Position numbers and translations under genes: made by a program. This document shows, piece by piece, positions 38,560-53,807 of a stretch of DNA of 64,000 nucleotides (position 1 is the stretch's first letter; every line of letters starts with the position of its first letter). The DNA comes from a virus. The notes beneath the pieces are model-generated. The model worked only from the letters and a program-made list of their open reading frames with translations, ran no database searches and was not told the DNA's origin. The stretch lies in IMG/VR virus record IMGVR_UViG_3300037961_005428, positions 1 through 64,000 of that record, one strand, 5' to 3'.

Positions 38560-38823
38560 ATGGCTCAGCCGATGGACATCGCTTGGATGGTGTTGAAGCA
38601 AGAAGGCTATGAGGACTATGTGGACCCTACATTAGACCAATCCTCAAGTTATTATCCCCCAATCCAACCTTCGGCACCAAGTCCGGAGCCACAGGAGTAT
38701 TTTTCTTTACCTCAAAGCCCGCAGGCCCGCCTTATGAGACTGTATTCAAAGGCACAGTCTGTTGGCTACGCTAATTTGACAGATGCAGAACGGGACGAAA
38801 TAAGAGCACTGGGTGGTATGTAA
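38560..38823 (+). CDS. AW..LK-tagged protein
   Basis: MAQPMDIAWMVLKQ. Confidence 0.75.
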   Translation: MAQPMDIAWMVLKQEGYEDYVDPTLDQSSSYYPPIQPSAPSPEPQEYFSLPQSPQARLMRLYSKAQSVGYANLTDAERDEIRALGGM

Positions 38824-38825
38824 GC

Positions 38826-39293
38826 ATGCATTCGCTTGAACAGGCTTGGTCTGTCCTCAAGCAGTATGACCCTCAGCGGTCCCTGCATGGGCGCTCGGTC
38901 ATGTTTCCACAGATGCGCTCACCTACTGTAATAGTTGAGAACCGACAAGTAGGTCGGGATGGACTCCCTTTGCATACTTTGGGTAGAAACCGCGCTTCCG
39001 GCGGCTATTCACAGATGGACCCCAAGTACAAGGGCCTCTTTACACCTTATCACGAACAAGACCTACCGGGCCCGCTTCATGAAGTGAGGTTCCAGCATCA
39101 GCGTAAAGGCCGGAACCTTACACCCGATGAGCGGCTTGTCCGAGTAACGGCTGACCGCAACCAAGCGATTGACCGGGCCAACCAGTTCCACCAAGACCGC
39201 ATTGATGCCATGCAGAATTTGCCCGAGCCCGGCAGTTTTTCACGGCCTCCCAACCCGGACTTCAATCCCTTCACGATGTCCGGTGGTCAATGA
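38826..39293 (+). CDS. AW..LK-tagged protein
   Basis: MHSLEQAWSVLKQ. Confidence 0.75.
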   Translation: MHSLEQAWSVLKQYDPQRSLHGRSVMFPQMRSPTVIVENRQVGRDGLPLHTLGRNRASGGYSQMDPKYKGLFTPYHEQDLPGPLHEVRFQHQRKGRNLTPDERLVRVTADRNQAIDRANQFHQDRIDAMQNLPEPGSFSRPPNPDFNPFTMSGGQ

Positions 39294-40261
39294 TGTCCCC
39301 CCTTGAAACGGCTTGGTCTATCCTCAAAGCACAAACTGAACTGGGTCAACATCACCCCGACTTCCCTTCTTCACAGGGCCCGGTGCTTGGGTACCACGGT
39401 CGCAATTTCTCAACCAAGTTCAATAACCCCTTTGGCAATTTTTACGACGCCAAGCGTGAGGTGTTTGATGACGACTTTGAGGCTATGCAAGAAGCCGTCG
39501 CCAACATCAAGGCAGCGCAACTTCTTCAAACGGGCCTTGTGCCAACTGACACGGCTGAATCGCAAGTCGGTAGTGGGCGCTTCAATCAATATGACGACAA
39601 GGGCGTACACAATTACGGAGTGGACACGAAGTTCAATCCCGACATCCCTGCCTCTATTTCGGTGGCAGTTGAGCCCCACACGGCGATTGGCTATGCAGAA
39701 GGTGCGAGAGGCTACAAGGACTCAAGCGGTCTGCCCGGCTTCTACGGGATAAGGGCTGGAGCCATGCAAAACGCTTTGCCCTTGGACGAGCCTTTGCGCC
39801 GCTACAAAATAGGTGATACGGACGATTTCATCTACAACAATCAGCGATACCGCTACATCCCGCACGGCATCGCTCCCAACCAAATGGTCCGCTTCGCTGA
39901 TGCTCAATCCATGGAAGAGTTTGATGAAGGCGTCACAAGTCCGTGGTACGGGCGTGAAAGAAAGCGTGCGCCTTCGCGCTTTATTGGAGTCGGCCCCGGT
40001 CAGTTTAGGGGTAGGGACCTTCAACTCTTGGAAGAGGGCAAAATGAATGTGGATGAGTTTAGAAGTCCCGAGCGGGACACTCAAAGGGTGATGGAGTCCG
40101 AACAATTCATTCGTGACCAAATTGCTCAGTATCAGCAACAGCAACTCGCCCAGCAGCAAGCGATGGCCCAACGGCAGGCTGACCAGCAAGCCGAGCAAGC
40201 GTTTAGGCAGCAACAAATGGCAGCGGCACCTCAACAACAACTTCCAATCGGGGTGCGGTGA
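39290..40261 (+). CDS. AW..LK-tagged protein, possible ADP-ribosyltransferase-like fold, Gln-rich tail
   Basis: MMSPLETAWSILKA; GYHG...GLVP...SVA...AIGYA. Confidence 0.55.
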   Translation: MMSPLETAWSILKAQTELGQHHPDFPSSQGPVLGYHGRNFSTKFNNPFGNFYDAKREVFDDDFEAMQEAVANIKAAQLLQTGLVPTDTAESQVGSGRFNQYDDKGVHNYGVDTKFNPDIPASISVAVEPHTAIGYAEGARGYKDSSGLPGFYGIRAGAMQNALPLDEPLRRYKIGDTDDFIYNNQRYRYIPHGIAPNQMVRFADAQSMEEFDEGVTSPWYGRERKRAPSRFIGVGPGQFRGRDLQLLEEGKMNVDEFRSPERDTQRVMESEQFIRDQIAQYQQQQLAQQQAMAQRQADQQAEQAFRQQQMAAAPQQQLPIGVR

Positions 40262-40296
40262 AGAAACTTTATCTCTTCGCCCTCACTGCGACACAC

Positions 40297-41499
40297 ATGG
40301 TCGCAGCCTTGGACGCCGCTTGGTCGCTCCTCAAGGCTTTGGATGAGCAGCAGTTGTACACACAAGCCAATCCCGGCCCTGCGGCACCAATGGGCTTCGG
40401 CGATGTCCCATATCCGCAATATGAGCAAATGCGACTCGGCACTGCCCATCCGGCGATATCGGGTTTACTTGAGCGTGTAGAGCACATGAGGGCCAACCCC
40501 TACTCCGGAACTCAAAAAGACCATCCCCAAGATGTTTACGACCCCGAAAAGCGGTTTGAAAGGTTTGGTAGACTTGGTGGAGGTTATGGGAGCCTCATTC
40601 ATAGTTTTGGCAACCAGCCTTCTCTCCGTGTAGACTCGGGGCAACTGGCTAATATGATACAGGACAGTGGTATGCGCCATCACTTCGCTACTCAAACAGA
40701 CGAGGAAGCACTTAGGGAAATGCAAGACAACCGGCCAAGGCATGATTACACCCCTCTTCCGTATATACCACGAATGACGGGTAGGGCTGACCCCACAACG
40801 GTAGAGGGTGTACCCGGTGTCAAATTCGGCCCTCCACCTATCGTTTATGACAACTTCCAAACACGGGATAGCGAGGGAAACTTGGTAACGAGATTTGGTA
40901 GCCAGCAAAAACACCCAAGGTATGATGCCCATTATGATGAGCGACAAAACCCATTAACGGGCGTCATAGATGATTTTGAATTTGGGCCAATTCAATTTCC
41001 TCAAGCGCCAATTCCGGGCGTACCGGGCGGCGCTCACCATCCCAGTCTTGACACACCTCCCGAGGTCGGTATGGTTGGACAAATAAGACCACAACACCCT
41101 TCCGCGAAAGCCTTTGGCGCACCAATCAATATCCTAAGTACATCTCGTGGTAGAAGTGGTGTTGCACAAAGTGGATTTTATCCCCCCTATAGCCAACACC
41201 TTAGAGACATGCGAGGCCGTGGTGAAGACGATGACATCACTTCGTGGCACCTTTCCCGACAACCTTCTACGGATATTTACCAAGGACATGGTGGTGACAA
41301 AGTTGCCAACTTGCGGGGAGGTGCTGACCCCTTCCCGATGAAACAGTTGGGCCAAGAACTGGCTCAAGGCGCTCGTTCTCCCAATCGCCTAAGTAGGGCT
41401 CTAAGTAGCATTTTTAATCGCTTCCGCCGCCCTCAAGTTAATGAGCCTCAGTTTGATTTCGCCTTTGACGAACCACAGTATGATTTGAGGGGGCTGTGA
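40297..41499 (+). CDS. AW..LK-tagged protein (start 40297)
   Basis: MVAALDAAWSLLKA; GTAHPAI. Confidence 0.75.
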   Translation: MVAALDAAWSLLKALDEQQLYTQANPGPAAPMGFGDVPYPQYEQMRLGTAHPAISGLLERVEHMRANPYSGTQKDHPQDVYDPEKRFERFGRLGGGYGSLIHSFGNQPSLRVDSGQLANMIQDSGMRHHFATQTDEEALREMQDNRPRHDYTPLPYIPRMTGRADPTTVEGVPGVKFGPPPIVYDNFQTRDSEGNLVTRFGSQQKHPRYDAHYDERQNPLTGVIDDFEFGPIQFPQAPIPGVPGGAHHPSLDTPPEVGMVGQIRPQHPSAKAFGAPINILSTSRGRSGVAQSGFYPPYSQHLRDMRGRGEDDDITSWHLSRQPSTDIYQGHGGDKVANLRGGADPFPMKQLGQELAQGARSPNRLSRALSSIFNRFRRPQVNEPQFDFAFDEPQYDLRGL

Positions 41500-41503
41500 T
41501 AAC

Positions 41504-42133
41504 ATGAACCCAATAGACGCAGCATGGTCAATCCTCAAGGCTGACCCCAATCTCCGTATGGTGCACGGCGGCGTCTACCCCAACGCCCGTTTCGGTGGAC
41601 GGAGTCAAACCATGCACCCTGCTATCGCTGGGATGATGCAAGGTATCGGTGAGGGAAGAAGTCCCATACCGATGGAAGACATTGAGGGCGTTGATACTGG
41701 TTTTTTTGACACACACACTCCCGCTCGCTACCGAACTTGGCCCCAACCGTATAGTGAAGCACACGGCAATTTAGACAGTGGAGACCATCTGTACTCTATG
41801 GGAAGCCTCCGGTCCATGGTCCCGGTTAGATACCAAGGCGCTCCCAAAACTCCCGACCGACTTCTTTACGAGATGTCAAAGGTTTCTCCTTACAGAATGT
41901 ACGATACTGCAAACCTGCAACAAATTGATGACCCTTCTCAAAATGAAGAGTTTATGCAGGCTTTCAATGCCTATCCCGAGAAGTTGCGTCAATTCTATGA
42001 GCAACAAGGAGACATGGATGTGCACCCGCACACTGTTGCCCGAATAGCCGGTCGCCAAGATTACGGTCGTATAGGTCGCACGGGCAACCCCGACAACATT
42101 CAAATGATACCCGACATGATGGGAGCGATGTGA
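41504..42133 (+). CDS. AW..LK-tagged protein
   Basis: MNPIDAAWSILKA; QTMHPAI. Confidence 0.75.
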   Translation: MNPIDAAWSILKADPNLRMVHGGVYPNARFGGRSQTMHPAIAGMMQGIGEGRSPIPMEDIEGVDTGFFDTHTPARYRTWPQPYSEAHGNLDSGDHLYSMGSLRSMVPVRYQGAPKTPDRLLYEMSKVSPYRMYDTANLQQIDDPSQNEEFMQAFNAYPEKLRQFYEQQGDMDVHPHTVARIAGRQDYGRIGRTGNPDNIQMIPDMMGAM

Positions 42134-42137
42134 TAAC

Positions 42138-42506
42138 ATGAGCCCAATGGATGCCGCTTGGGCGATACTCAAGGCTGACTTTTATAGCGATAAGCAACGA
42201 GCCCTTGAACAAGCCCTTGGTCCTGTGTACGGTCATGTAAGAATGGCTCGGGGCAAAGCACAAGAAGAAGCCGAGAGGATGCCGTACTCAACAGACCCCA
42301 AGGTTAGGGCAACACAAGGTCCGCTTGACTATCTGTTTGCGGGAATGGACATTGAGCCGGAGTTGATGAGGCCACCATCACCTTGGCCTAACCCTCCTAC
42401 TTACGCCGCTCCTCCGCCGGCTGACCCCGAGTTCATGGCTCGCATCAAGGCTGACGAAGAAGAGTCGCAACAGCGCAAAACCGAGCGTGAAGAACGGAAG
42501 CGTTAA
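42138..42506 (+). CDS. AW..LK-tagged protein
   Basis: MSPMDAAWAILKA. Confidence 0.75.
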   Translation: MSPMDAAWAILKADFYSDKQRALEQALGPVYGHVRMARGKAQEEAERMPYSTDPKVRATQGPLDYLFAGMDIEPELMRPPSPWPNPPTYAAPPPADPEFMARIKADEEESQQRKTEREERKR

Positions 42507-42632
42507 GTAGGGGATGCCCAACATAGGGCACTAAGGGAGAGGCGGTACCCTCCAGTCGTGTGTTCTTTTGGGCTCTGAATCACTTCTCGCATTTCTTCAT
42601 TCCGCCGCCTCTCCCCCCTTTCGGTGAAAAGT

Positions 42633-42767: not shown

Positions 42768-42778
42768 TGTAGCCACCC

Positions 42779-43186
42779 ATGCTGTCACGCCACATGGCGG
42801 ATGCTATAGAGTGGTTGACCGACGAGGAAATCATCGGAAAGACCGACTGGTCCGATGTGGCGTTTTGCGATTGTTGCTCGCCACTTGAGATTTCTATGGC
42901 CGTTGTCAAGGCGAAGCGAAAGTCCAAGCCTTTTCACGGCTACAATCCAAACAAGCACGCCAAGACCGGTGGGCTGAACGCCAAGGGTCGGGCGGCTGCG
43001 AAGCGCAAGACTGGGGCCAATCTCAAGCGCCCCGTCACCAAGAAGCCCAGCAAACTCAAGCGAGGTAGCAAAGCCTCCAAGCGACGCAAGTCATTTTGTG
43101 CCCGCATGTCGGGTGTCAAAGGTCCGACCAGCAAGAAAGGTAAACTCACTCCCAAGGGAGCCGCTTTGAAGAGGTGGAACTGTTGA
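42779..43186 (+). CDS. very basic protein, DUF6321-like
   Basis: GGLNAKGRA...LKRPV...KRRKSFCARM...RWNC. Confidence 0.7.
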   Translation: MLSRHMADAIEWLTDEEIIGKTDWSDVAFCDCCSPLEISMAVVKAKRKSKPFHGYNPNKHAKTGGLNAKGRAAAKRKTGANLKRPVTKKPSKLKRGSKASKRRKSFCARMSGVKGPTSKKGKLTPKGAALKRWNC

Positions 43187-43377
43187 ACTGTGACTGTGAG
43201 CATTGCTTTGGTATGCAGACGGCTTGGGACCTTCTTGAGAAGAAATTGTGCCCGGCTGGTAAAGCGGCGGCGAAGCGGAAGTTCAAGGTGTACCCATCGG
43301 CTTACGCTAACGGATGGGCCGTACAATACTGCAAGGGCAAGTTCCGTGGCAAAAAGAAAGGGGGCAAAAAGAAATGA
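43174..43377 (+). CDS. small basic protein with tag variant
   Basis: QTAWDLLEKK then AKRKFKVYPSAYANGW. Confidence 0.7.
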   Translation: MELLNCDCEHCFGMQTAWDLLEKKLCPAGKAAAKRKFKVYPSAYANGWAVQYCKGKFRGKKKGGKKK

Positions 43378-43922
43378 ATCCAATGGACGCAGCGTGGAAT
43401 GTGCTAAAGGCACTACCAAGTCGTGAAGTGGTGCAGAACAGATACCGTTTTACTGGACAAGGGCACCCATTTTTGGATGAAAAAGGTAATCCCACCCCCG
43501 AAACCAAAAGAGATTTGGTTGAGCAAATGGGGATTGGAACAAGGCACCCTGCTTTGAATCCAGCGCATGTCATTGAAAGCGTGAGTGGCAGACCCACCAA
43601 TATCACAGAAGGTTCACACCTTAGCCCAATAGAGCCCACTGACATTTTGCGCTATCCTACGGGCGACAGCATAACCGGTGCTGAAACTGGCAGAGCGGAG
43701 TTGGAAAACACGCGTCAACGACGAATTAACGAAAGAAGTCAACGCCGTTTGACGGGAAATACATCCCCTCCAAGGCTCATTGACCATCATCGTTACACAC
43801 ATTTGCCCCCCGGCAACTACTATGGTGGCAACCTTCCAAAAAATAGCGCACTCAGCGACGAAGAAATGGAAAACTTGCGTCAACAAGCGCAACAGATGCC
43901 CTTTTCGTATGAAGGTCAATGA
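43374..43922 (+). CDS. AW..LK-tagged protein (start 43374)
   Basis: MNPMDAAWNVLKA; GTRHPAL. Confidence 0.75.
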   Translation: MNPMDAAWNVLKALPSREVVQNRYRFTGQGHPFLDEKGNPTPETKRDLVEQMGIGTRHPALNPAHVIESVSGRPTNITEGSHLSPIEPTDILRYPTGDSITGAETGRAELENTRQRRINERSQRRLTGNTSPPRLIDHHRYTHLPPGNYYGGNLPKNSALSDEEMENLRQQAQQMPFSYEGQ

Positions 43923-43931
43923 GGGATAAAA

Positions 43932-44138
43932 ATGCACGCTCTTGAACATGCTTGGCGCATCATCAAGGGCAAAGAGGATGCTCCAAATTATCGCAAAGCC
44001 ACGGGGCCAAAGAAGTGCGGCAACTGCAAGGCTTGGGATTCTTCAAAAACTGACGACCCTATGACGGGGTATTGTGAGTGGTACGATTTTACTTGTCGTG
44101 CCGACCATGTGTGTGATGCTTGGGCGGGGAAGAAATGA
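43932..44138 (+). CDS. AW..IK-tagged HiPIP-like Cys4 protein
   Basis: MHALEHAWRIIKG; Y...CGNC...C...CDAW. Confidence 0.65.
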   Translation: MHALEHAWRIIKGKEDAPNYRKATGPKKCGNCKAWDSSKTDDPMTGYCEWYDFTCRADHVCDAWAGKK

Positions 44139-44719
44139 GTGAACAGTGCCCTTGTTGCAGCGTGATGGTTGTCAAAGACCTTAACCGCTGGTTCAAGGAG
44201 AAGTGGGTGGATGTGTCTCGCAAAGACAAGGACGGCAAGCACCCACCTTGCGGGCGCAAGAAGGCCAAGAAGGGGAGCAAAGGTTACCCTAAGTGCCGGC
44301 CGTCAGTCAAGGTGTCAAGCAAGACGCCGAAGACCTCCGGTTCTATGACTGAGGGGCAGAAGCGTGCGGCGACCAAGCGTAAGCGGTCCAAGAAGCAAGG
44401 AGTTGGCGGAAAACCGACGATTGTCAAATCACTGGTGCTCAAGCGACCTGTCAGTCCCGAGGCCAAGCGTCACAAGTTGGAATACGACACCAAGTACGAG
44501 TCTACGCCCGAGCGTGTCAAGTATCGGGAAGAACTTAAGCGTGAACGCCGACATAGAGGTATTGACGGTAAAGGGGGTCCGGACATGAGTCACACGAAAG
44601 ACCACACCCTTGTCGCCGAAGACCCTCACACCAACAGAGCCCGCCACTTCAAAGAGCGAGGCACACTCAAGGGCGACCCTATGGACATCGCTTGGCTCCT
44701 TGTCAAAGGTGAGTGGTGA
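44120..44719 (+). CDS. multi-module basic protein (DUF5872-like plus HNH-like) with C-terminal AW..VK tag
   Basis: LNRWFKEKWVD..PCGR..YPKCRP; DMSH...E...NRAR; GDPMDIAWLLVKG. Confidence 0.7.
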   Translation: MGGEEMSEQCPCCSVMVVKDLNRWFKEKWVDVSRKDKDGKHPPCGRKKAKKGSKGYPKCRPSVKVSSKTPKTSGSMTEGQKRAATKRKRSKKQGVGGKPTIVKSLVLKRPVSPEAKRHKLEYDTKYESTPERVKYREELKRERRHRGIDGKGGPDMSHTKDHTLVAEDPHTNRARHFKERGTLKGDPMDIAWLLVKGEW

Positions 44720-44947: not shown

Positions 44948-46072
44948 ATGCTGAGTCCAACTGACGCCGCTTGGTCTGTCCTTGAAGAAGGGCACCGTGT
45001 GGACAAGGCCCTTCCGTTCCTCATTCCGGCGGCGATGTTAGCCTATGGCGGCTATCAAGGTGCGAAAAATGTCAAGGAAAATCGTATCACTGACCCCTTT
45101 TTAGGGGTGGTCGGTACCGAAGGCAATGATTCACTCGGTAGTAACCTTGCCGAGTTTGGGACAGGTTTTGCACAGGGCGTTGTCCCCGTCAAGGGTGGAG
45201 GCTTTTTGGCCCGGAAGTTTGGTGGCCGCCGTGCAGCAAAGCGTGCAGCAGCACGAGAAGCCGCAGAAAAGGAGGCGGCTGAGGCTGCGGCCCGCCATCA
45301 AGCGTTGTCTGCTCAACAGCGAAGGGGTGTGCTACAGCGGGAGAATCCCGAAGTTGGCTATGTGTTTGGTGAAGTAGCCCCTTATGTTTCTCCTTCCCAA
45401 CTTGGTGCTGTTCGCCAAACGATGAACGCTGCCCAAGCACGGGCTGCCCGGCTGGCTCCGAGAGCACAAGCACCAGTCGCTCCGTTGACACTGGGTCAGC
45501 GTGCAAAGTTGGTTGCAGCCACAGGCGCTGGTGCAGCCACTGCTTATGCTCCCGAAATTATGATGGCACTTGGGCTCGCTGGGAGTCCGCCCACCAGTAC
45601 AGAATTTGGAGGATTTGGTGCAACAGGCACAGGCGGTTTCGGCGCAGGGCAGGGTGGTCAACAGGGCTTCCAACTCGCAGGTCAACAGTCCGGCGGCGTT
45701 GGTGGTGTGCAAAATGTCGGTGTGAGCGGTATGGCTGACCACGACATTTTCCAAGGCAAGCAATTCCAGTCGGCTCCGACATCATCAAATATGCAAGCCC
45801 CTTCCATCAAACAGAAGGGGACCCCTATGTCGCTCGGAAACAATCTCATCAACTCCACCTTGAGTGTAATGGAACGCAACATTATGAAAGCCAGTGTGTG
45901 TGAACGCTGTGGCAAGAAAGGCTGCGTCAACAAAATGCACTGCATGGCGAAAGCCGATGATGGCAAAAAGAAAAAGCCAGCCCACGGCATGGTCATTGTC
46001 ATTGGCTCCAAAGCCGGCCCGGGCCCGTCAACGAACGGCAAGCGGGACGACAAAAAGGACGACAAAGAGTGA
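44948..46072 (+). CDS. Gly/Ala-rich tagged protein with hydrophobic segments
   Basis: MLSPTDAAWSVLEEG...VDKALPFLIPAAMLAYGGY. Confidence 0.7.
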   Translation: MLSPTDAAWSVLEEGHRVDKALPFLIPAAMLAYGGYQGAKNVKENRITDPFLGVVGTEGNDSLGSNLAEFGTGFAQGVVPVKGGGFLARKFGGRRAAKRAAAREAAEKEAAEAAARHQALSAQQRRGVLQRENPEVGYVFGEVAPYVSPSQLGAVRQTMNAAQARAARLAPRAQAPVAPLTLGQRAKLVAATGAGAATAYAPEIMMALGLAGSPPTSTEFGGFGATGTGGFGAGQGGQQGFQLAGQQSGGVGGVQNVGVSGMADHDIFQGKQFQSAPTSSNMQAPSIKQKGTPMSLGNNLINSTLSVMERNIMKASVCERCGKKGCVNKMHCMAKADDGKKKKPAHGMVIVIGSKAGPGPSTNGKRDDKKDDKE

Positions 46073-46164
46073 TACTCAAGGGCTGTTTCGCTCCCTCTCA
46101 GCGTCCAGCCCACCTTAGAAGGTTTTATTTGGTCGTGTATTTTGGGGTTATATGAGAGGATTGT

Positions 46165-46701
46165 ATGTCAAGCGGTAGCCAAAGCGTTGACCAAAGTGAA
46201 ATTCGGCTCATGGGGCTTATCCTCATGCAGTCGCTAAATGTAGGACTTGCCATCGGTGTATTCAACGCCGGCATTTGGATTGATTTAGAGAGCACGATGC
46301 TGAATGCATTTACTTATGCGATGGGTGCGTTTTTCGTCCAAGGCATAGCGTATTACTTCTTCAAAATGTTCTTCCAACAGGGCATGGACGACAAGGCTCG
46401 CCAGTCCGAGATGGAGCGAGAGCGGCGCAACCGCTACCGGGCTATGGAGATGACTTTTGAGCGCCGCCGTCAAGACATGGAACTTCGCATGCAAGAGGCA
46501 CAACTTGAACAAGAGTTGCGCTGGATGGAAAACAACCCCGGAAAAATGCCACCGATGAGCCTTTCTGACCCTATTTCGCTTGACACTGGCAACTTTAATC
46601 CCGAAAAGGGCGATAAGACCCTTTCATTGGGTGTCTCCTTTGACGAGGAGAAGCCACTCACCAATCGTGGGGCTGATGGCAAGTTCAAGAAGAAGGAGTG
46701 A
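46165..46701 (+). CDS. membrane protein (2 TM) with coiled coil
   Basis: Two hydrophobic helices, then charged heptads. Confidence 0.75.
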   Translation: MSSGSQSVDQSEIRLMGLILMQSLNVGLAIGVFNAGIWIDLESTMLNAFTYAMGAFFVQGIAYYFFKMFFQQGMDDKARQSEMERERRNRYRAMEMTFERRRQDMELRMQEAQLEQELRWMENNPGKMPPMSLSDPISLDTGNFNPEKGDKTLSLGVSFDEEKPLTNRGADGKFKKKE

Positions 46702-46943
46702 GGCCTGTGGGCTGGCTGTTCAAAACGCCAAGTGATGATGCAACGGAGTCAACGCTTCGTGCTATTCACATGGCGAACACTTTGGACACCGCTTATGAGC
46801 GCACATGGGGCTGGGTTAAAACGGTCATTTTCTCGTTTATCAGCGCCCTGTCTATCAGTGCCTTTGAGTATCACAACGATTGGAGTTTTTGGGAGCATAC
46901 TGTTAACTGGCTTGCCAACGAGGTTATGGGTTGGTTTGAATGA
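46698..46943 (+). CDS. small membrane protein
   Basis: VIFSFISALSISAF hydrophobic segment. Confidence 0.65.
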   Translation: MRPVGWLFKTPSDDATESTLRAIHMANTLDTAYERTWGWVKTVIFSFISALSISAFEYHNDWSFWEHTVNWLANEVMGWFE

Positions 46944-47656
46944 GTGCAGCAGCGGGCTCTGCCATGGTGGGTGGCGTTATTTTTGCCAAGGAACTTTACC
47001 ATTATTGGGTTCCCCGCAGGGTCGGTGTGTATGGTCCACCGCTGGCTGGAAAGACAACGCTGGACAAATACTTGACCACGCCCGGTGAAATGGAAGACAT
47101 TCCTCTTGACAAGCGCACAACTCACACAAAGGTGCTTGGAAAATTCCTTCTTCCCCGTGCCAGTCGTAAGCGTGTGAAGTACAAGGGTGAAACTCGTGTG
47201 ATTCATTCCGCAGATATGGGCGGCGAACAGCGGTTTTGGAACCTGTGGGTGGACGATATGGTCAATCGGGGCGTAGAAGCAGTGGTGTTCATGTTTGATG
47301 ACCGTGCAAATGCAGGTGGAGATACCACCGTTGACGCTGTTGGCGGCTTCAAATTCTTGGTGGACGCTCTCATTTACCGTCAATATCGCTATAGAAACCT
47401 ACGAAGTTGGTTGAAAGGCAAGAAGTACACGCCCAAAGTCATTCTTTTGGTTGCTAACAAAGCCGATAAGTGGTGGGATGAGCAGGCAAATACGCTGTGG
47501 CAGCAGCAGCGTCTTGGAGAACATCGCATTTTTGACCCGTTTCGGGAAGACCTTATTCGTCTACAAAAGGCCGGTATACCTACACGAAGGGGTATGATGG
47601 CCACCCGAATTGGCTGGAATGTGGAAAATACGATGGTGGATTTGCTGTCAACATGA
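46940..47656 (+). CDS. Ras/Arf-superfamily small GTPase
   Basis: G1 GPPLAGKTT, G3 DMGGE, VVFMFD, G4 NKAD; hydrophobic N-terminal helix. Confidence 0.88.
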   Translation: MSAAAGSAMVGGVIFAKELYHYWVPRRVGVYGPPLAGKTTLDKYLTTPGEMEDIPLDKRTTHTKVLGKFLLPRASRKRVKYKGETRVIHSADMGGEQRFWNLWVDDMVNRGVEAVVFMFDDRANAGGDTTVDAVGGFKFLVDALIYRQYRYRNLRSWLKGKKYTPKVILLVANKADKWWDEQANTLWQQQRLGEHRIFDPFREDLIRLQKAGIPTRRGMMATRIGWNVENTMVDLLST

Positions 47657-47667
47657 GGTGAACGAAC

Positions 47668-48651
47668 ATGAATGGATTACGACGCTACGGGCAGGTCCCG
47701 CAACAGGGAAATGGCAACTTATACGCTCTTGACGCTAATCAAATGGCGGCTTTGTCGCAACAAGGGAGCCTTTCGCACGAACAATTGATTGAAATGCAAG
47801 GTGCGCAGCAAGGAATGCGAGAAGCGGCTGCAAAAAGCAACATTGAGGTGCCAAAAGTCAATTTTTACCCCAGTCGGCACCCCGATTCACGAAAAGCACG
47901 CAAAAAAGACATCAAACAGGCCCGAAAACTGCTCAAACCGAGCAAAAGAAGCATTTTCAACCCCTTACGGTGGGTTGGAATGAAGTATCGGTACAACAAA
48001 TTGCATGAAAGGTGCGTTGTGGACGGCTGTGACTGCGTTGAACTCATCAAATACGACAATTTGTATGCTAAAATCTGTGATGAGGACACTGGAGAGAGCC
48101 TTTGGGACCTTTATTGGACAAATCCGGTCACAGGAGAGGTTCAAGCCTTCGTAGCGGCTGAAAATGTCACTGATGGGCGCAAAATGAGGGGTACATACTG
48201 CCCCGAACACCTTCATTTGTACCATTTATTGTGTAAATGGGAGGATGAGAACGACAAAGTGCGCCTTAACAGCAAATCCGGTATGCGAGAAATGGTCAAA
48301 AAGGGCGTTTCTACGGTCGCTGTACCCATTTCAATGGTCAAAAAGAAGGACAATACACCCCAATTTTTGGCCAAATATGAGCCTTTTTTCAAGCAATTAG
48401 AGCAGGATTCACGCCAAACAAGCGGTATTTCCATCCTTCATTACCAAAATCCGGTATCAAAAATGAATGATGTGACCATGATTGTGTTTGATTTGCGCAT
48501 TTTTCAGCAGGAATTAGGTCAAATTGACCAACAAAACCCGCCCAGCATCCTTGATGCAGTGGGTAAAATGGGTATTACCCTCCCCGATTCCCCACCTCTC
48601 CAACAGGTTGAAGAAGAGAATGGCCCTCAGTTTGGCCAAGGGCAGGCTTGA
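47668..48651 (+). CDS. hypothetical protein with Cys/His Zn-binding motif
   Basis: CVVDGC...YCPEH. Confidence 0.7.
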   Translation: MNGLRRYGQVPQQGNGNLYALDANQMAALSQQGSLSHEQLIEMQGAQQGMREAAAKSNIEVPKVNFYPSRHPDSRKARKKDIKQARKLLKPSKRSIFNPLRWVGMKYRYNKLHERCVVDGCDCVELIKYDNLYAKICDEDTGESLWDLYWTNPVTGEVQAFVAAENVTDGRKMRGTYCPEHLHLYHLLCKWEDENDKVRLNSKSGMREMVKKGVSTVAVPISMVKKKDNTPQFLAKYEPFFKQLEQDSRQTSGISILHYQNPVSKMNDVTMIVFDLRIFQQELGQIDQQNPPSILDAVGKMGITLPDSPPLQQVEEENGPQFGQGQA

Positions 48652-49295
48652 AAGCAGGTGAAAACATGTTATTCGGAAACAATCAACAGCAAAGCGGTGC
48701 ACTGAACCTTGGTGCGCCAGCCAATACTCCACAACAGCCCTTCCAATTCGGTCAGCAGCCGCCCAGTGCCATGCAAAACTTTGGCCAAAGTGCGTTTGGT
48801 GGCAGTATGATGCAGGGTATGGGTATGAATCCGGGCATGATGCAGCAACCCGTGGCCCCGCCCAGTGAAACTGAAATTCAATTGGCACTCATGCGCTCTG
48901 TCGCACCTATGGACAGATTCGTGGCATCAGCCCAAATGGCCACGCTTGTGCAGATGCTGAACGACCTTGTTAGTTTCTCAGTGCTGGAAGTGATGAAAAA
49001 CGCCACTTTTGTCATCAACGAGGACGATGGTACCATGAAATTGGATGTTACTTCACTGCCTTCCAACCTTCAAACCATGAGTGCGGAGAATGTCACCAAT
49101 CAATTTAACCAACTTCAAAGCACCAGTCAGCAAAACATCCAGCAAATGGAGATGCAGCAGCAACAAATCCTTGCTATGGCTCAGCAATCGCTGATGGGTG
49201 GGGCACTTGCAGCGGCTATGGCTGACGAAGGTATGATGCAAAAGGTGGGTGGCGGAGTTGGCTCCTTCGCTCGTAGTATGTTGGGAGGACGATGA
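48648..49295 (+). CDS. Gln/Met-rich protein
   Basis: Low-complexity N-terminus, helical C-terminus. Confidence 0.7.
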   Translation: MKAGENMLFGNNQQQSGALNLGAPANTPQQPFQFGQQPPSAMQNFGQSAFGGSMMQGMGMNPGMMQQPVAPPSETEIQLALMRSVAPMDRFVASAQMATLVQMLNDLVSFSVLEVMKNATFVINEDDGTMKLDVTSLPSNLQTMSAENVTNQFNQLQSTSQQNIQQMEMQQQQILAMAQQSLMGGALAAAMADEGMMQKVGGGVGSFARSMLGGR

Positions 49296-49296
49296 T

Positions 49297-49548
49297 ATGG
49301 TAGATAGTGGTATACCGGGATTTTACTATGGCTTTGCCATGTCAACACGCGACATTTTTGCCCCAAAGAAGAGCGTCATTGTAGATATGGTGATGGTACA
49401 GGTTTTGACCATCATCGTCACCCTTTCACTGGTGTTGTTGACGGGCTCGGGTAAGTTGTCTTCGGACACAATGGCTTACATGATGGGAGCCATGATGGGT
49501 GCGATTTTGCTTGCTACGGGGATTTACACCCGTATTTCACAACAATAG
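49297..49548 (+). CDS. small 2-TM membrane protein (holin-like size)
   Basis: GGAGG RBS; two hydrophobic segments. Confidence 0.65.
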   Translation: MVDSGIPGFYYGFAMSTRDIFAPKKSVIVDMVMVQVLTIIVTLSLVLLTGSGKLSSDTMAYMMGAMMGAILLATGIYTRISQQ

Positions 49549-49800: not shown

Positions 49801-49858
49801 AGTGTTTCCTCGCTGTTCTTTCCTAAAGGCTTATCGTTGGGCGTAGCATGGACCACGC

Positions 49859-50569
49859 ATGGGAGGTCGGCAGACCAAGCGTTCTTGCCCTTTTTGCCAA
49901 GACCCCGACCGTGACAAACTTGAGATGAGCATTGCTCAAGGCATCGCTGATGTTCGCACCATGGACCGCGATAAAGGCTGGCGGGCCAACACGGCAGAAC
50001 GCCACATGAGAAACCACGCTGGTGAAAATTTAGAAGGTTCCAACTATCGCTGCGTGATATGCACGGACGACCACCGAAGCATGTACGAAGTCGCTTATTT
50101 TGACGAGGGCATGACCACCGAAGAGATTGCCCAAGAGTTGAATTGCAGTGAGGCTACAGTCTACAAGCACATGAAAGAGCACTTCCAGCCCATCGTCAAG
50201 CAAAGTGCATCGGCTATTGTGTCCATTAAGGTGGGTCAAGAGGCTGATATCCTGCGACACAACACTGAGCGCCTCAATGAAAAGTTGTCTCGCTACATGG
50301 ACGAGGTCAGCATCCACGATGACGGGGCTGTTTCGGACATGGTTAAGTTGAGCAAAGAGATTCGTGAGTCCATCAAGGACTTGACTTCGTTCCAAAAGGC
50401 GTGGGTTGAACCCGAGGAGAAAATGGTCGCAAACACCATCAACATCCTCAAAGTTGAAATGGCGAAAGAAAGTCCCGATACTTGGAAGCGTGTCAAAGAA
50501 GCCTTGCTCACACAGGAAGGCGACGAAATTGACATCAGCGGCATGTTAGAGCAGGAGGATAGCGCATGA
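49859..50569 (+). CDS. tandem Zn/HTH DNA-binding protein, terminase small subunit candidate
   Basis: Two CxxC...HxxxH HTH units plus coiled coil. Confidence 0.55.
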   Translation: MGGRQTKRSCPFCQDPDRDKLEMSIAQGIADVRTMDRDKGWRANTAERHMRNHAGENLEGSNYRCVICTDDHRSMYEVAYFDEGMTTEEIAQELNCSEATVYKHMKEHFQPIVKQSASAIVSIKVGQEADILRHNTERLNEKLSRYMDEVSIHDDGAVSDMVKLSKEIRESIKDLTSFQKAWVEPEEKMVANTINILKVEMAKESPDTWKRVKEALLTQEGDEIDISGMLEQEDSA

Positions 50570-51618
50570 CCAGTAGCATGGGTACCGGCACTGACACCCG
50601 CATGTACTCCCCTCGGTCCGAATCGGACCACCTGTACTCGGACGGTGAAGACTACCGACACGGTAAGGGCTCGCCCGAACACGAGGACGAGATGAAAGAC
50701 AAGAAAATGAAGGAGAAGGAGGAGCGTGTCAAGACCCGTGAACTCCCCCATCTCAAGTTCAACATTGAATCGGCCGAGCAGGACATGGGTATGCCTGCTC
50801 CTATGCCGATGGACGAGCCACAAGAGGACATGATGGAAGAAACGCCCATGGCTCAGCAGGGTGAACTTAGCGCTCTTACCGGTTCTCCGGGCACCGGCTC
50901 ACCCGAAGCCAGCATTAGTTTTGGTGCACAGGCGCTCAGCCCGTATGGTCAGCAGACCATCATGGCCAGCGAGCCGATGGACATCGCTTTCCAACTGCTC
51001 AAGCGAGATGGCGACTTCTCCACTCAGCCGTTCAAGGCTCCCCCCGGTGGCCGCTCTCGTCAAAAACAAGCAACATCCATGCGTGCTAAGCGACAGGCTC
51101 GCACACTCAGCCCTCGCACGGAAAAGGGTGGCATGGTTAATGCTGATAAAGCCGTTGAGATGTCTCACCTTGGCATTGATACCAAGCAACCCCTGCGTTT
51201 GTTCCCCGACAAATACCGTCAAAGCCTTGGTACTCGGGCCATGCAGGCCAATCGTGGTAACATTGCGCTCCCCTATCAAGGGCACAACATTGAGCGCCGC
51301 ACTCCTTTCAAGCCCATGACCATGAAGTCCGAACTTCAAGAAGTGCAAATGCTTCTCAAGTCGGCTTCGGGCTACCTTCACCTCAGTCAATTGCGCAACA
51401 TTCTGCGAGACTTGAAGCGAGCCATCGCTCGCAAGGAGTCAGCCAAGAAAGCGCCGCCGTCCGGCAAAGGCACTTCCAAAGAAGGCGAGGCTGGGCACCG
51501 TGATGGTGAAACCACTCAGCCCCAAGGGCGCACTGACAATGTAGAGGCTGATGAGTTCCGTTCTGCCGGTGCCTCCGGTCACCAGTTTGTGAGCAGGGGT
51601 AGCGGGAGGACGGCTTGA
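50566..51618 (+). CDS. putative virion protein with internal tag
   Basis: SEPMDIAFQLLKR internal. Confidence 0.7.
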   Translation: MTSSMGTGTDTRMYSPRSESDHLYSDGEDYRHGKGSPEHEDEMKDKKMKEKEERVKTRELPHLKFNIESAEQDMGMPAPMPMDEPQEDMMEETPMAQQGELSALTGSPGTGSPEASISFGAQALSPYGQQTIMASEPMDIAFQLLKRDGDFSTQPFKAPPGGRSRQKQATSMRAKRQARTLSPRTEKGGMVNADKAVEMSHLGIDTKQPLRLFPDKYRQSLGTRAMQANRGNIALPYQGHNIERRTPFKPMTMKSELQEVQMLLKSASGYLHLSQLRNILRDLKRAIARKESAKKAPPSGKGTSKEGEAGHRDGETTQPQGRTDNVEADEFRSAGASGHQFVSRGSGRTA

Positions 51619-53807
51619 TGTTCCGTGTTCACTACTCGTCGGACTCACTGGCCAAGAGCCGTGGCGGGTTTGACATTGTGGACACGCTTCACCGCACATG
51701 GAACCTCATGAAGCAGCAGATGGTGCTTCGCAAGTCCTACGGCCTGTACCACATTGGCGAGGATGAGACGCACCCGATTCGCCACTGGGCACCCGAAGAA
51801 GCATTCAATCCACCCGAAGACATTGGTTGGTACGACCAGTTTGAGGGGCCCGAAGGCATGCGGGCGCACCACCCGCCGTTTGGCCACGATTTCAAAACCG
51901 GCCGCCTCCTTCATCGCACTCGCAACGGGCAAACTGTTCCCGAAAGCGCCCACCCGCTTGACTACATGATGGGGCACATGCATCACAAAGTGCGAGAACA
52001 TTTCATTAAAAACGGTGTTAATCCGGACGCTACGGTTGAAAGTGGTGAGCCTATTTGGTCAATGGACCATGTCAAACACATGTTCAATCACGCTATCAAC
52101 ATACACAACAAGACTGGAGATAACCTCCCTAATGTAAACAGTGTGCTATGGCGATTGAACACCACGAGCGGGTTTGACGGGGACAGTGTCGGCAGTGAAC
52201 GACAGGCCACAACGGATGATGGCCGACCAATTAACTACTCCACGAACATGGGGAACATGCACGATTTAGAGGGCGCTGACAAAGGAATGTGGATTGATGG
52301 TGGTGTCCATCCCATGTATAAGGACACGGCCCGAGTAGCGCAATTCACTTTTGACATGTACGAAAAACTGCTCGGCATCCCTATGCCGAAGGTTGATGAC
52401 TTTGCTTACCTCACCAGTTCCAAAGTCCCTCTTCAGAGCATGACTTTTGGACGAGTTCGTCCGTTGAGGCGGGAAGAGGCTGAGGAGCATTTTGGCGAAG
52501 GTGGAAGCGGTATGATTCCCGGTCACAAGTCGGGGAAAGTTGTTGAAAATTATCACCCGCTGGATGTAGCGCACTTTGCTCCCAAGGCGTTGTTTGCTAC
52601 TCCGACACGAAACTTGGGGGCTAAGCAACGAGCCCAAGGTGAAGATTCGGCTGAAATCGCATCTCGTGCTAACGAAATTATCCGAGAACTTGGCGAAATC
52701 GGCATTAACATCACTCCCGAAGAAGCCATGCAATACGCAGCCATGCCCATTTCACAATTCTTGATTGGTGGGACGGGACACCAAGTGAAGGCCGGCTCAC
52801 GAGCACCAGCCATTTTGAGAGGAGTGGCAGCATCACTTGGCGTGGATATGGAGTCGGGTATGTATAAACGGGTTCGGGATTCAATTGGAACTCGCAGAGG
52901 CGCTTCAAAGAACAGAGGACTTTCTCGCTCTCGTGATTTGTACGCTATCCCTTGGGTGCACTCACTTAACCTCCTTGCATCGGGTCAAGCCGAGAATCAA
53001 CAGGATGCTTGGATGCAGGCACTTGACAACTTTCGCAACGCAGACTACGACCACAAAGACCATGCTTATGACGAGGCAAACCACGACGCATACCTCCAAT
53101 TCGTCAATGCGTTCCGTAATACCGACGGACATAGAGGACAAGTGTCTCAAATCACTGGTAAACTCCCCGAGGCTCACAAAGACCATCCTCATCACGACAT
53201 TCACTCGTCTGTACCTCCACATTGGGAGGGGCATGTACACGCTCTGCCAGCAGGAATTTCGCCAACGGCTGACCGGGTACAGGAAGTCACTGCCAACATG
53301 CTGGCGCAAAATAGAAGAGAGGAGCCACCCCGTAAACGAGCCATGGAGGATGCCGCCGCTGCTCCTGTCAGTATGGAAGAACTTCAAGCGGCTCGCTCTC
53401 AATTGAACAACCCTTCGCAGCGCGTAAGGGAGGCTTCTGCGGTCTTACCCCAGCCGACTTATGACCTTGAAGGCAATCAAGGGGTATCTCGCCAACAACG
53501 ATTGGACGACGGTAGCATCATCACTTCTTCTGAAGAGCGCACGGTTAGCGACCTGCTCAAGACCATGGAGCGCATTCAATTCAAAGAAGCAAGTCAAGAC
53601 GCTGTGGTCAAATCACTGGCCCAGTATCGGTCCCGAATCACCAAGGCTGACGATGTCAGTGCCGTAGCCAAATCGCTCGGCATCAGCGTGATGGATGTTC
53701 ACGGCATCTACCACTCACACGGCGATTGGCACCGTGTGGCAAGCGACTGGAATGTCGGTCCCGAAATCGTCAAGGCGGTCAAGGTCACCTTTGGGGGTGG
53801 CGCTTGA
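51615..53807 (+). CDS. large His-rich putative virion protein
   Basis: 730 aa; tag variant LHRTWNLMKQ near N-terminus. Confidence 0.7.
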   Translation: MMFRVHYSSDSLAKSRGGFDIVDTLHRTWNLMKQQMVLRKSYGLYHIGEDETHPIRHWAPEEAFNPPEDIGWYDQFEGPEGMRAHHPPFGHDFKTGRLLHRTRNGQTVPESAHPLDYMMGHMHHKVREHFIKNGVNPDATVESGEPIWSMDHVKHMFNHAINIHNKTGDNLPNVNSVLWRLNTTSGFDGDSVGSERQATTDDGRPINYSTNMGNMHDLEGADKGMWIDGGVHPMYKDTARVAQFTFDMYEKLLGIPMPKVDDFAYLTSSKVPLQSMTFGRVRPLRREEAEEHFGEGGSGMIPGHKSGKVVENYHPLDVAHFAPKALFATPTRNLGAKQRAQGEDSAEIASRANEIIRELGEIGINITPEEAMQYAAMPISQFLIGGTGHQVKAGSRAPAILRGVAASLGVDMESGMYKRVRDSIGTRRGASKNRGLSRSRDLYAIPWVHSLNLLASGQAENQQDAWMQALDNFRNADYDHKDHAYDEANHDAYLQFVNAFRNTDGHRGQVSQITGKLPEAHKDHPHHDIHSSVPPHWEGHVHALPAGISPTADRVQEVTANMLAQNRREEPPRKRAMEDAAAAPVSMEELQAARSQLNNPSQRVREASAVLPQPTYDLEGNQGVSRQQRLDDGSIITSSEERTVSDLLKTMERIQFKEASQDAVVKSLAQYRSRITKADDVSAVAKSLGISVMDVHGIYHSHGDWHRVASDWNVGPEIVKAVKVTFGGGA

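What the first reader, a model, noticed from the sequence alone, without database searches (positions are those of the whole stretch)
38560..53807. Shared peptide tag (P-[MLIV]-[DE]-x-A-W-x-[ILV]-L-K) on ~14 mostly unrelated proteins: candidate capsid-targeting / processing system
Seen at N-termini: MAQPMDIAWMVLKQ (38560), MHSLEQAWSVLKQ (38826), MMSPLETAWSILKA (39290), MVAALDAAWSLLKA (40297), MNPIDAAWSILKA (41504), MSPMDAAWAILKA (42138), QTAWDLLEKK (43174), MNPMDAAWNVLKA (43374), MHALEHAWRIIKG (43932), MLSPTDAAWSVLEE (44948) and MDPVDVAWSILKA (15817). Internal or C-terminal copies: GDPMDIAWLLVKG (44120 ORF), SEPMDIAFQLLKR (50566) and LHRTWNLMKQ (51615). Conservation is at peptide rather than nucleotide level, and the sequences diverge right after the Lys. 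Known precedent: T4 internal proteins carry a ~10-aa capsid targeting sequence that the prohead protease removes. Inference: this amphipathic helix docks diverse cargo into the procapsid, is cleaved after Lys, and the cargo is injected into the archaeal host. I know of no such description for archaeal viruses.
Basis: partly seen in the sequence, partly recalled or inferred. Interest (0 to 1): 0.92.

Follow-up and report, generated by a model that had tools for sequence, protein, structure and literature searches.

The report
Shared address tag on magrovirus proteins
Thirteen otherwise unrelated proteins of this uncultured ocean archaeal virus carry the same 10-12-residue helix, which also marks hundreds of proteins in related viruses and most likely loads a fast-changing set of enzymes into the virus particle, though neither loading nor cutting has been shown.

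Summary
The motif P-[MLIF]-[DE]-x-A-[WF]-x-[ILV]-L-K occurs 12 times in the window, all on the + strand, against 0.03 in shuffles. Two further degenerate copies exist; one listed copy (LHRTWNLMKQ) is not supported.

The genome is a 96.5-kb magrovirus-like tailed archaeal virus. In 195 related IMG/VR loci I found 540 motif matches (372 unique proteins, 146 sequence clusters, 104 of them singletons). All synonymous codons are used, so selection acts on the peptide.

The tag sits at N-termini (267), internally (103) or at C-termini (25). Tag-plus-module units occur both as stand-alone genes and fused exactly at the tag. It is at chance level in 596 Gb of cellular genomes and absent from halovirus HVTV-1.

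Cargo is mostly unannotated, but includes a Tpt1/PARP-like ADP-ribosyltransferase family (window gene 39290 is a divergent member), a Dam-type methylase and a TFIIS zinc ribbon.

In other lineages tagged genes lie inside the head-tail operon. The tag persists in a genome without the neighbouring GTPase operon.

Best reading (about 0.5): a portable docking helix for virion loading. Cleavage after Lys is only circumstantial.

This scan noted the same tag on another magrovirus genome (e1-5999106). I found no published description.

The parts
15817..16620 (+). Tagged ORF (267 aa) lying alone on the + strand inside the replication arm. Tag PVDVAWSILK at 15823-15852.
   Evidence: A TATA-like element shared with the divergent minus-strand gene lies upstream. 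No homologue in the fetched loci.
38560..38823 (+). First gene of the tagged cluster (87 aa). Tag PMDIAWMVLK at 38569-38598.
   Evidence: No Pfam or PHROG hit.
38826..39293 (+). Tagged ORF (155 aa). Tag SLEQAWSVLK at 38832-38861.
39290..40261 (+). Tagged ORF (323 aa). Tag PLETAWSILK at 39299-39328, then the conserved leader QTELGQHHPDFPSSQGP. Divergent member of the tagged mini-ADP-ribosyltransferase family, with a Q-rich C-terminal helix.
   Evidence: hhalign against the mini-ART family A2: probability 99.6%, E 1.9e-24, over residues 2-203. Much of that score comes from the shared leader. Its own AF2 model is poor, pLDDT 40.7. The family's IPPE Glu is Asn here.
40297..41499 (+). Tagged ORF (400 aa). 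Tag ALDAAWSLLK at 40306-40335. Second motif GTAHPAISGLLER 38 residues after the tag Lys.
   Evidence: No Pfam hit. The protein atlas was uninformative.
41504..42133 (+). Tagged ORF (209 aa). Tag PIDAAWSILK at 41510-41539. Second motif TMHPAIAGMMQ.
42138..42506 (+). Tagged ORF (122 aa). Tag PMDAAWAILK at 42144-42173.
42779..43186 (+). Basic ORF (135 aa). Cys-rich leader (CDCC) followed by a degenerate tag PLEISMAVVK at 42881-42910.
   Evidence: Orthologues carry canonical tags at this spot (for example SPMDNAFALMK, EPFDDAWDILK before AKRKSKPF).
43174..43377 (+). Small basic ORF (67 aa). CDCEHC leader plus the tag variant GMQTAWDLLE(KK) at 43210-43239.
   Evidence: The variant is conserved in relatives.
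43374..43922 (+). Tagged ORF (182 aa). Tag PMDAAWNVLK at 43380-43409. Weak second motif TRHPAL.
43932..44138 (+). Tagged small Cys-rich ORF (68 aa). Tag ALEHAWRIIK at 43938-43967.
   Evidence: weak DUF7140 hit, E 0.007. It forms a nine-member cluster among the relatives.
44135..44719 (+). Multi-module basic ORF (194 aa). Order: CPCC leader, DUF5872 module, truncated tag (SLVLK), phrog_6437 module, then the C-terminal tag PMDIAWLLVK at 44678-44707 followed by GEW-stop.
   Evidence: In L001 a further module plus tag is inserted exactly after this tag. The phrog_6437 module has homologues in marine cyanopodoviruses such as Syn5 gp50.
44948..46072 (+). Tagged ORF (374 aa). Tag PTDAAWSVLE at 44957-44986 (ends in Glu), then a hydrophobic segment and a Gly/Ala-rich region.
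   Evidence: It forms a twelve-member cluster among the relatives.
50566..51618 (+). Late-module ORF (350 aa) between the HTH gene and the terminase. Internal tag PMDIAFQLLK at 50974-51003 in the typical internal context (x-S-E-P-M-D).
51618..53807 (+). 729-aa ORF whose listed copy LHRTWNLMKQ is doubtful.
   Evidence: Not conserved in orthologues. No family hit.
53807..54748 (+). Gly-zipper protein just upstream of the terminase. Untagged here, but orthologues in L010 and L012 (532 aa) carry a C-terminal tag.
54745..59348 (+). Context: large terminase (54745-56247), HNH-like ORF (56368-57618) and portal (57618-59348). The S78 protease-scaffold fusion and the MCP lie outside the window at genome positions 66411-67793 and 67812-68984.

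Best explanation
The tag is a self-capping three-turn amphipathic helix: N-cap residue, Pro, a hydrophobic residue, Asp/Glu, x, Ala, Trp, x, a hydrophobic residue, Leu, Lys. Its hydrophobic face follows an i, i+4, i+7 pattern. It works as a portable docking peptide that does not depend on its position in the protein.

Shown: it marks 13 proteins here and at least 146 sequence clusters in related magroviruses. It is selected at the peptide level. It is specific to this virus clade. Tag-plus-module units behave as cassettes that are either free-standing genes or fused at the tag.

Inferred: the helix plugs into one common receptor of the assembling particle. The most likely receptors are the scaffold part of the S78 protease-scaffold fusion or the inner face of the HK97-type capsid protein. 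The tagged proteins would then be enclosed in the procapsid and delivered with the DNA into the next Poseidoniales cell. These include ART-like enzymes, a DNA methylase, a TFS-like ribbon and small basic proteins.

More weakly inferred: the prohead protease may trim the tag after the Lys, or simply destroy the receptor, as in T4.
For: - Enrichment and strand bias: 12 hits against 0.03 expected in the window; 249 against 23 on the opposite strand in 73 related loci; control pattern 0 in five near-complete genomes.
- Peptide-level selection: 346 different 30-nt tag sequences that use all Pro, Ala, Leu and Lys codons.
- Near-invariant positions in N-terminal copies: Ala 237/243, Trp 235/243, Leu 228/243, Lys 235/243. 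This fits a specific protein pocket better than generic membrane binding.
- Unrelated bodies; 146 clusters; distinct Pfam domains.
- Structure: the AF2 model of the ART family shows the tag as a helix (residues 2-15), then an unstructured linker, then the ART core. The fold matches Tpt1/KptA and PARPs.
- Late, structural context: tagged genes are the first genes of the arm that carries terminase, portal, protease and MCP. In other lineages they lie between head-completion, g73048, g74953 and tube homologues, next to the terminase, or at the C-terminus of the conserved protein upstream of the terminase.
- The receptor is not the neighbouring GTPase operon: G004 keeps 6 tags without it.
- Not a host motif: 9 hits in 596 Gb of cellular genomes, about chance.
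- Precedent: T4 internal proteins share only a capsid targeting sequence, and Alt has propeptides at both ends (PMC3012670, PMC9026906).
Against: - No virion proteomics exists for any magrovirus, so packaging is untested.
- The timing of the tagged cluster is unknown. It sits directly after a divergent intergenic region, a position that also suits early host-takeover genes. One tagged gene (15817) lies in the replication arm beside an early-type TATA element.
- No receptor was identified; Pfam scans of the genome's ORFs up to 900 aa gave no obvious hub domain.
- Cleavage: outside the tags, a [WFILVM]-x-[ILV]-[LIV]-K site in the first 40 residues occurs only in the protease, ORF 59379 and ORF 44135.
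- C-terminal copies with only 2 residues after the Lys make cleavage unnecessary for them.
- The nearest cultured relative by capsid protein, HVTV-1, has no such tag, so its virion data cannot be transferred.
Confidence: 0.5

Rival explanations
1. The tag docks the proteins to a hub that has nothing to do with the virion. Candidates are a host machine (RNA polymerase, ribosome, chaperonin, proteasome-activating ATPase, sliding clamp) or a virus factory. The tagged genes would then be newly made host-takeover proteins.
For: The cluster sits right after the divergent intergenic region and consists of small, fast-evolving, unannotated genes, as early genes often do. Gene 15817 lies in the replication arm next to an early-type TATA element. 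Short terminal or internal helix motifs are how many clients bind hubs such as clamps (general knowledge). The Phe/Met-x-x-x-Trp-x-x-Leu spacing resembles the p53-MDM2 type of helix-groove docking (my recollection).
Against: In several lineages tagged genes are packed between capsid-completion and tail genes, in the same orientation. A conserved head-module protein carries the tag in L010 and L012. Host genomes do not use the motif. No hub-like domain was found in the virus.
Confidence: 0.22
2. The tag is mainly a recognition and cleavage signal for a protease (the viral S78 enzyme or a host one). That enzyme would mature polyproteins and remove leaders, without any sorting into capsids.
For: Fusions and fissions happen exactly at tags: 19 of 94 internal modules are collinear from the tag with stand-alone N-terminally tagged proteins (P0003). 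Conservation ends at Lys, often followed by Pro within 2-3 residues. Internal copies are often preceded by a second Lys site such as TIVK-S or LVLK-S. The protease itself has an invariant I/L-x-V/I-L/I-K-S/A after a variable N-terminus, and FRILK at the end of its catalytic domain. HK97 protease cuts after a Lys (my recollection, not checked here).
Against: A cleavage site does not need ten conserved residues with an invariant Ala-Trp. N-terminal leaders of 12 residues have no obvious need for removal unless they do something first. The site is not enriched elsewhere in late proteins.
Confidence: 0.12
3. The tag plugs accessory proteins onto the outside of the particle (capsid surface, tail or the giant fibre-like protein), as shared N-terminal anchors do for interchangeable receptor-binding proteins.
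For: Tagged genes occur among tail genes and next to the homologue of the giant 4958-aa ORF. An earlier case in this scan (e1-158929) ended in that reading for another phage.
Against: No Ig, PKD, lectin or fibre domains were found among 137 representatives. Instead there are ART, GNAT, Dam methylase, HD, TFIIS ribbon and small basic proteins, whose targets are intracellular.
Confidence: 0.1
4. The repeated peptide is a by-product: a recombination junction or the remnant of one ancestral gene family, with no function of its own.
For: Two junctions in the window share DNA, including the spacer (tgtgataacATGa.cccaat at 41504 and 42138). Cassettes recombine at tags.
Against: Synonymous codons vary freely while the peptide stays fixed: 346 DNA versions, and identical codons in only 48% of identical residues within the window. 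The Gly codon upstream of internal tags shows no Shine-Dalgarno bias. Bodies carry unrelated Pfam domains.
Confidence: 0.04

Closest known systems
Capsid targeting sequence (CTS) of phage T4 internal proteins IPI-III and the propeptides of Alt (Mullaney and Black 1996, as reviewed in PMC9026906 and PMC3012670)
   Same: A peptide of about 10 residues is the only thing shared by a diverse, fast-evolving set of proteins. In T4 it suffices to load them into the scaffolding core. The cargo includes an ADP-ribosyltransferase (Alt) and anti-restriction proteins. Alt is processed at both ends, which parallels the doubly tagged proteins here.
   Different: No sequence similarity to MKTYQEFIAE. The protease here is S78 (HK97-type), not T4 gp21, and the possible cut would follow Lys rather than Glu. 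The tag also works internally and at C-termini. There are 13 tagged proteins per genome and more than 100 families in the clade. The virus is archaeal. Packaging and cutting are unproven here.
Encapsulin cargo-loading peptides
   Same: Short terminal peptides on unrelated cargo dock to the inner face of an HK97-fold shell. Some cargo genes lie near the shell gene (compare L108, L120 and L133).
   Different: The consensus differs (Gly/Ser/Leu-rich and extended rather than an Ala-Trp helix). The shell here is a true virus capsid with scaffold, protease, portal and DNA. Binding to the capsid protein is not shown.
Packaged effector sets of other phages: P1 Dar proteins (including the methyltransferase DarB), MuF-fused polymorphic toxins, and ejection proteins of SPN3US/phiKZ (PMC9024508, PMC7411985; partly my recollection)
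   Same: Enzymes that act on the next host are carried in the head. The repertoires are variable.
   Different: Those systems use long propeptides, fusion to a head protein or ordered protein-protein assembly, not one short shared motif.
C-terminal motif of IS630/Tc1-type DDE transposases (SPDLNPIE-x-x-W-x-x-LK)
   Same: It looks alike by eye. One IMG/VR pattern hit (L078, SPDLNPIEKAWSILK) is of this kind.
   Different: There the motif lies inside the catalytic domain, around the last acidic residue. The tagged proteins have no transposase domain. This is a chance resemblance.

Membership tests
T4-type capsid targeting sequence | Short peptide shared by otherwise unrelated proteins of one virus | tested here: met
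T4-type capsid targeting sequence | Sequence related to MKTYQEFIAE and cut at L/I-x-E by a gp21-family protease | tested here: not met
   The tag has a different sequence. The virus encodes Peptidase_S78, not a gp21-type enzyme. The T4 features are taken from PMC9026906.
T4-type capsid targeting sequence | The tag is sufficient to load a protein into the prohead, and the proteins are present in virions | not testable with these tools
   No cultured magrovirus and no proteomics. HVTV-1 lacks the tag.
T4-type capsid targeting sequence | Strictly N-terminal propeptide | tested here: not met
   103 internal and 25 C-terminal copies among 372 unique proteins.
Encapsulin cargo-loading peptide | HK97-fold shell protein encoded by the same element | tested here: met
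   The MCP matches SU10_MCP, Phage_capsid and phrog_24667.
Encapsulin cargo-loading peptide | The peptide binds the luminal face of the shell protein | not testable with these tools
   No multimer prediction was available.
Magrovirus (Magrovirales-like virus of Poseidoniales) | About 100-kb genome; MCP about 33% identical only to haloarchaeal siphovirus MCPs; own PolB, clamp loader and other replication genes (PMC5434244) | tested here: met
   96,499 bp. MCP 31-33% identical to HVTV-1, HCTV-1 and HCTV-5, with no closer named hit. PolB, RFC-like AAA, SNF2 and PD-(D/E)XK present. The host was not tested.
ADP-ribosyltransferase fold (Tpt1/KptA, PARP-like) for the tagged mini-ART family and window gene 39290 | ART fold with the His of the H-G-[ST] motif and downstream Tyr and Glu | tested here: inconclusive
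   Family A2: Foldseek top hits are Tpt1/KptA (E 3.6e-4) and PARP16/4/2; profile against PDB gives PARP16 at E 0.008; 2 members hit Pfam PARP. Window gene 39290 aligns to A2, but it has HGR, Asn in place of the IPPE Glu, and a poor model. Activity is unknown.
IS630/Tc1 DDE transposase | The motif is embedded in a DDE catalytic domain | tested here: not met
   No transposase domain in the tagged proteins. The tags are terminal.

The most novel reading that the evidence does not exclude
Magroviruses, among the most abundant viruses of surface-ocean archaea, run a general cargo-loading system. One 10-residue helix, usable at either end or between modules, binds the scaffold or the inner face of the HK97-type capsid. 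It loads an interchangeable arsenal of more than 100 protein families (ADP-ribosyltransferases, methylases, transcription-factor mimics, DNA-binding proteins) into the head for injection. The S78 prohead protease excises or releases the tag. This would be a viral counterpart of encapsulin cargo loading, and injected effectors of uncultured archaeal viruses could then be read directly from sequence.
Probability: 0.35. Interest if true: 0.9.

Novelty: new variant of a known kind. Interest (0 to 1): 0.78.

Why it matters
Magroviruses infect Marine Group II archaea, major players in the surface ocean, and neither virus nor host is cultured.

- If the tag is a virion-loading signal, it flags from sequence alone which of the many unannotated genes are delivered into the host.
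- It would point to ADP-ribosylation, DNA methylation and transcription interference as the first acts of infection.
- It would show that short portable capsid-sorting peptides arose independently of T4, with a different protease family, in archaeal viruses.
- It would offer a small tag for loading foreign proteins into HK97-type particles.
- Even if the receptor is something else, a single docking helix shared by more than 100 families defines an unknown hub of the infection cycle.

Tried and rejected
- **GTPase/membrane operon (46165-49548) as receptor: rejected.** A CheckV-complete relative (G004) has 6 tags but no homologue of the GTPase or its three neighbours.
- **Host-motif mimicry or provirus origin: rejected.** The Met-anchored pattern gives 9 hits in 596 Gb of prokaryote genomes. 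All are in bacteria and about at chance.
- **DNA-level repeat or recombination scar as the cause of conservation: rejected** by codon diversity.
- **Internal tags as hidden start sites behind a Shine-Dalgarno-like GGNGA: rejected.** The Gly codons are GGT 26 and GGC 21.
- **General Φ-x-Φ-Φ-K cleavage motif in late proteins: not supported statistically**.
- **Tag in the closest cultured relative, HVTV-1: none**, so its virion data cannot be borrowed.
- **Pfam scan of the genome's ORFs of 900 aa or less for a helix-binding hub domain:** nothing relevant. It found only ArdA, ERCC4, a pyrimidine-dimer glycosylase and HTH domains.
- **AF2 of window gene 39290:** too poor to use.
- **Protein atlas for gene 40297:** uninformative.
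- **Named phage collection:** no close relatives by terminase or by DNA.
- **Three magrovirus papers** contain no mention of an N-terminal motif.
- **Searches combining 'capsid targeting sequence' with archaea** found nothing relevant.
- **The tag-like NPEATFRILK in the protease** is in a different register and overlaps the canonical end of the S78 domain, so I do not count it as a tag.

Full report
**What the window is.** The window is the first 64 kb of a 96,499-bp single-contig virus record.
- The left arm (minus strand) carries family-B DNA polymerase, an RFC-like AAA ATPase, an SNF2 helicase, a PD-(D/E)XK nuclease and DUF932.
- The right arm (plus strand) carries an HTH protein, the large terminase and the portal.
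- Beyond the window lie an S78 prohead protease fused to a scaffold-like C-terminal part, an HK97/SU10-type major capsid protein (MCP) and a tail tube protein.
- The MCP's only named relatives are haloarchaeal siphoviruses HVTV-1, HCTV-1 and HCTV-5, at 31-33% identity. This is the signature Philosof et al. gave for magroviruses (PMC5434244).

- A six-frame scan finds 12 strict matches, all on the + strand and in real ORFs, against 0.03 in shuffles. None occurs in the remaining 32 kb of the genome.
- Ten copies begin at residue 2-4 of their protein. One is C-terminal (ORF 44135) and one is internal (ORF 50566).
- The variant AWDLLEKK in ORF 43174 recurs in orthologues.
- ORF 42779 holds a degenerate copy where orthologues have canonical ones.
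- ORF 44135 also holds a truncated copy at a module junction.
- The copy claimed in ORF 51618 is not conserved in orthologues.
- With tags masked, the window proteins share no significant similarity and have almost no Pfam or PHROG matches.

**The tag is a clade-wide feature under peptide-level selection.**
- I collected 73 loci anchored on the neighbouring GTPase-like gene.
- These loci and the genome itself gave 540 motif matches, 249 against 23 by strand in the first set.
- N-terminal copies read M-[TNS]-P-[FM]-[DE]-x-A-W-x-[LVI]-L-K. Ala, Trp, Leu and Lys are nearly invariant, and nothing is conserved after Lys, except that Pro is frequent 2-3 residues later.
- Internal copies read Φ-x-[TK]-[GS]-E-P-M-D-[LIM]-A-[WF]-[RQ]-L-L-K.
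- The 346 distinct tag DNAs use all synonymous codons. The Gly codon before internal tags shows no ribosome-binding-site bias.
- The 372 unique tagged proteins fall into 146 BLAST clusters, 104 of them singletons.
- The Met-anchored pattern occurs 9 times in 596 Gb of cellular genomes, about chance, and none is in archaea.
- HVTV-1 has no copy.

**The tag is position-independent and modular.**
- Among unique proteins, 267 copies are N-terminal, 103 internal and 25 C-terminal. Half of the C-terminal copies have only 2 residues after the Lys.
- 22 proteins carry two or three copies, some at both ends.
- 42 of 94 modules that follow an internal tag have a homologue that is a stand-alone N-terminally tagged protein. 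In 19 of these the alignment starts at the tag in both.
- A database protein (P0003) is the DUF5872 module of ORF 44135 fused, exactly at a tag, to a homologue of ORF 39290.
- In L001 an extra module plus tag is inserted right after the C-terminal tag of the ORF 44135 orthologue, keeping the GEW-stop ending.

**What the cargo is.**
- Of 137 representatives most have no Pfam match. The matches are PARP catalytic (2), GNAT (2), D12 adenine methylase, TFIIS zinc ribbon, HD, SLOG, DUF6321 and zinc ribbons.
- I confirmed two individually. One has an N-terminal tag plus a TFIIS ribbon (E 5e-13). The other has an N-terminal tag plus a D12 methylase (E 3e-17).
- A multi-paralogue family of 115-190-residue proteins starts with the tag, then a near-invariant RQTTLGEFHPDLPSPYG, then YHGT.
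- The profile of this family hits only ART-fold structures in the PDB (PARP16, Tpt1, exotoxin A, DarT; best E 0.008).
- Its AF2 model (pLDDT 74.7) shows the tag as a separate helix, a linker and an ART core. The best structural matches to the core are Tpt1/KptA and PARPs.
- Window ORF 39290 shares the leader and aligns to this family (hhalign 99.6%). It has insertions and lacks the family's Glu, and its own model failed.
- A second short motif, T-x-H-P-A-I-x-G-[ML]-[ML]-x-R (or HPDLP in the ART family), lies within 70 residues after the tag in 32 of 253 N-terminally tagged proteins. Shuffles gave 1.9. In the window ORFs 40297 and 41504 carry the HPAI form, ORF 39290 the HPDF form and ORF 43374 a weak HPAL copy.

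**Where tagged genes sit.**
- In this genome they open the arm that encodes the virion.
- In lineages with about 70% MCP identity they are interleaved with head-completion and tail genes (L108, L120, L133).
- Elsewhere they abut the terminase or the giant terminal ORF.
- The conserved Gly-zipper protein just upstream of the terminase (ORF 53807 here) carries a C-terminal tag in L010 and L012.
- A CheckV-complete relative (G004) lacks the whole GTPase/membrane operon yet keeps 6 tags, one of them on a doubly tagged protein next to the MCP.

**Interpretation.**
- The strict conservation of a small Ala next to Trp on one face of a capped helix points to a specific protein groove as receptor. So do position independence and cassette behaviour.
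- Structural-operon context, enzyme cargo with intracellular targets, virus specificity and the T4 precedent (PMC3012670, PMC9026906) make virion loading the best single reading. I put it near 0.5.
- Cleavage after Lys is circumstantial. The protease has an invariant I/L-x-V/I-L/I-K-S/A behind a variable N-terminus, and FRILK at the end of its catalytic domain. The MCP has a conserved SELLK-A at residues 31-36.
- The cleavage motif is not otherwise enriched in late proteins, and C-terminal tags do not need cutting.
- Rivals are a non-virion hub, pure protease processing and external docking. They are weighed in their own sections.

**Novelty.** Three magrovirus papers do not mention such a motif, and literature searches found no archaeal-virus capsid-targeting peptide. 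This scan had already noted the same tag on another magrovirus genome, with the same reading (e1-5999106). It had also noted comparable but unrelated tags in huge phages. Two earlier cases where a shared tag turned out to belong to a neighbouring enzyme prompted the partner test done here.

Noticed in passing
window 40411-40449, 41582-41614 and 43518-43535; related loci L049, L060, L086, L113, L131, L180, L190, L191: A second short motif, T-x-H-P-A-I-x-G-[ML]-[ML]-x-R, recurs 5-60 residues after the tag in otherwise unrelated tagged proteins. Counting all HP[ADSG]Φ forms, 32 of 253 proteins have it, against 1.9 in shuffles. It could be a second docking or processing element.
   Followed up: partly
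window 46165-49548: An operon of small membrane or coiled-coil proteins around a 238-aa GTPase-like protein follows the tag cluster and is conserved at 59-96% identity in 73 IMG/VR loci. It is absent from the complete relative G004, which still has tags.
   Followed up: partly
genome 81624-96499 (L075:1624-16499), outside the window: One open reading frame of at least 4958 codons runs to the end of the contig. Homologues at 56-69% identity exist in relatives, and tagged genes sometimes lie next to it.
   Followed up: no
window 60744-64000, continuing to genome 66383: A 1879-aa ORF lies directly upstream of the prohead protease. Its only hit is a weak ATP-dependent DNA ligase domain (E 0.0013, residues 1469-1560). 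G004 matches only that region.
   Followed up: no
left arm of the window (one of the ORFs in alignment A4; not located): One ORF matches the antirestriction protein ArdA (E 4.7e-21) and another a pyrimidine-dimer DNA glycosylase (E 1e-7). The ORF at 3-677 (minus strand) is an ERCC4/HhH nuclease.
   Followed up: no
window 56368-57618: A 416-aa ORF between terminase and portal has an HNH-endonuclease-like C-terminal part (phrog_5046, E 5.6e-10). It is conserved at this position in relatives at 38-66% identity.
   Followed up: no
window 42779-44719: The small basic proteins begin with Cys clusters (CDCC, CDCEHC, CPCC) immediately before a tag or tag remnant. The phrog_6437 module of ORF 44135 is 45-55% identical to small proteins of marine cyanopodoviruses (Syn5 gp50, P60, S-CBP2).
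   Followed up: partly
L078:126-257: An IS630/Tc1-type transposase fragment (SPDLNPIEKAWSILK) matches the tag pattern by chance. It is a false-positive class to exclude in wider scans.
   Followed up: yes
window 15760-15790, 20455-20470, 29955-29970, 35304-35316: The element TCTCCTTATAAAG occurs four times in front of left-arm genes. At 15776 it faces away from tagged gene 15817 and could act in both directions.
   Followed up: partly
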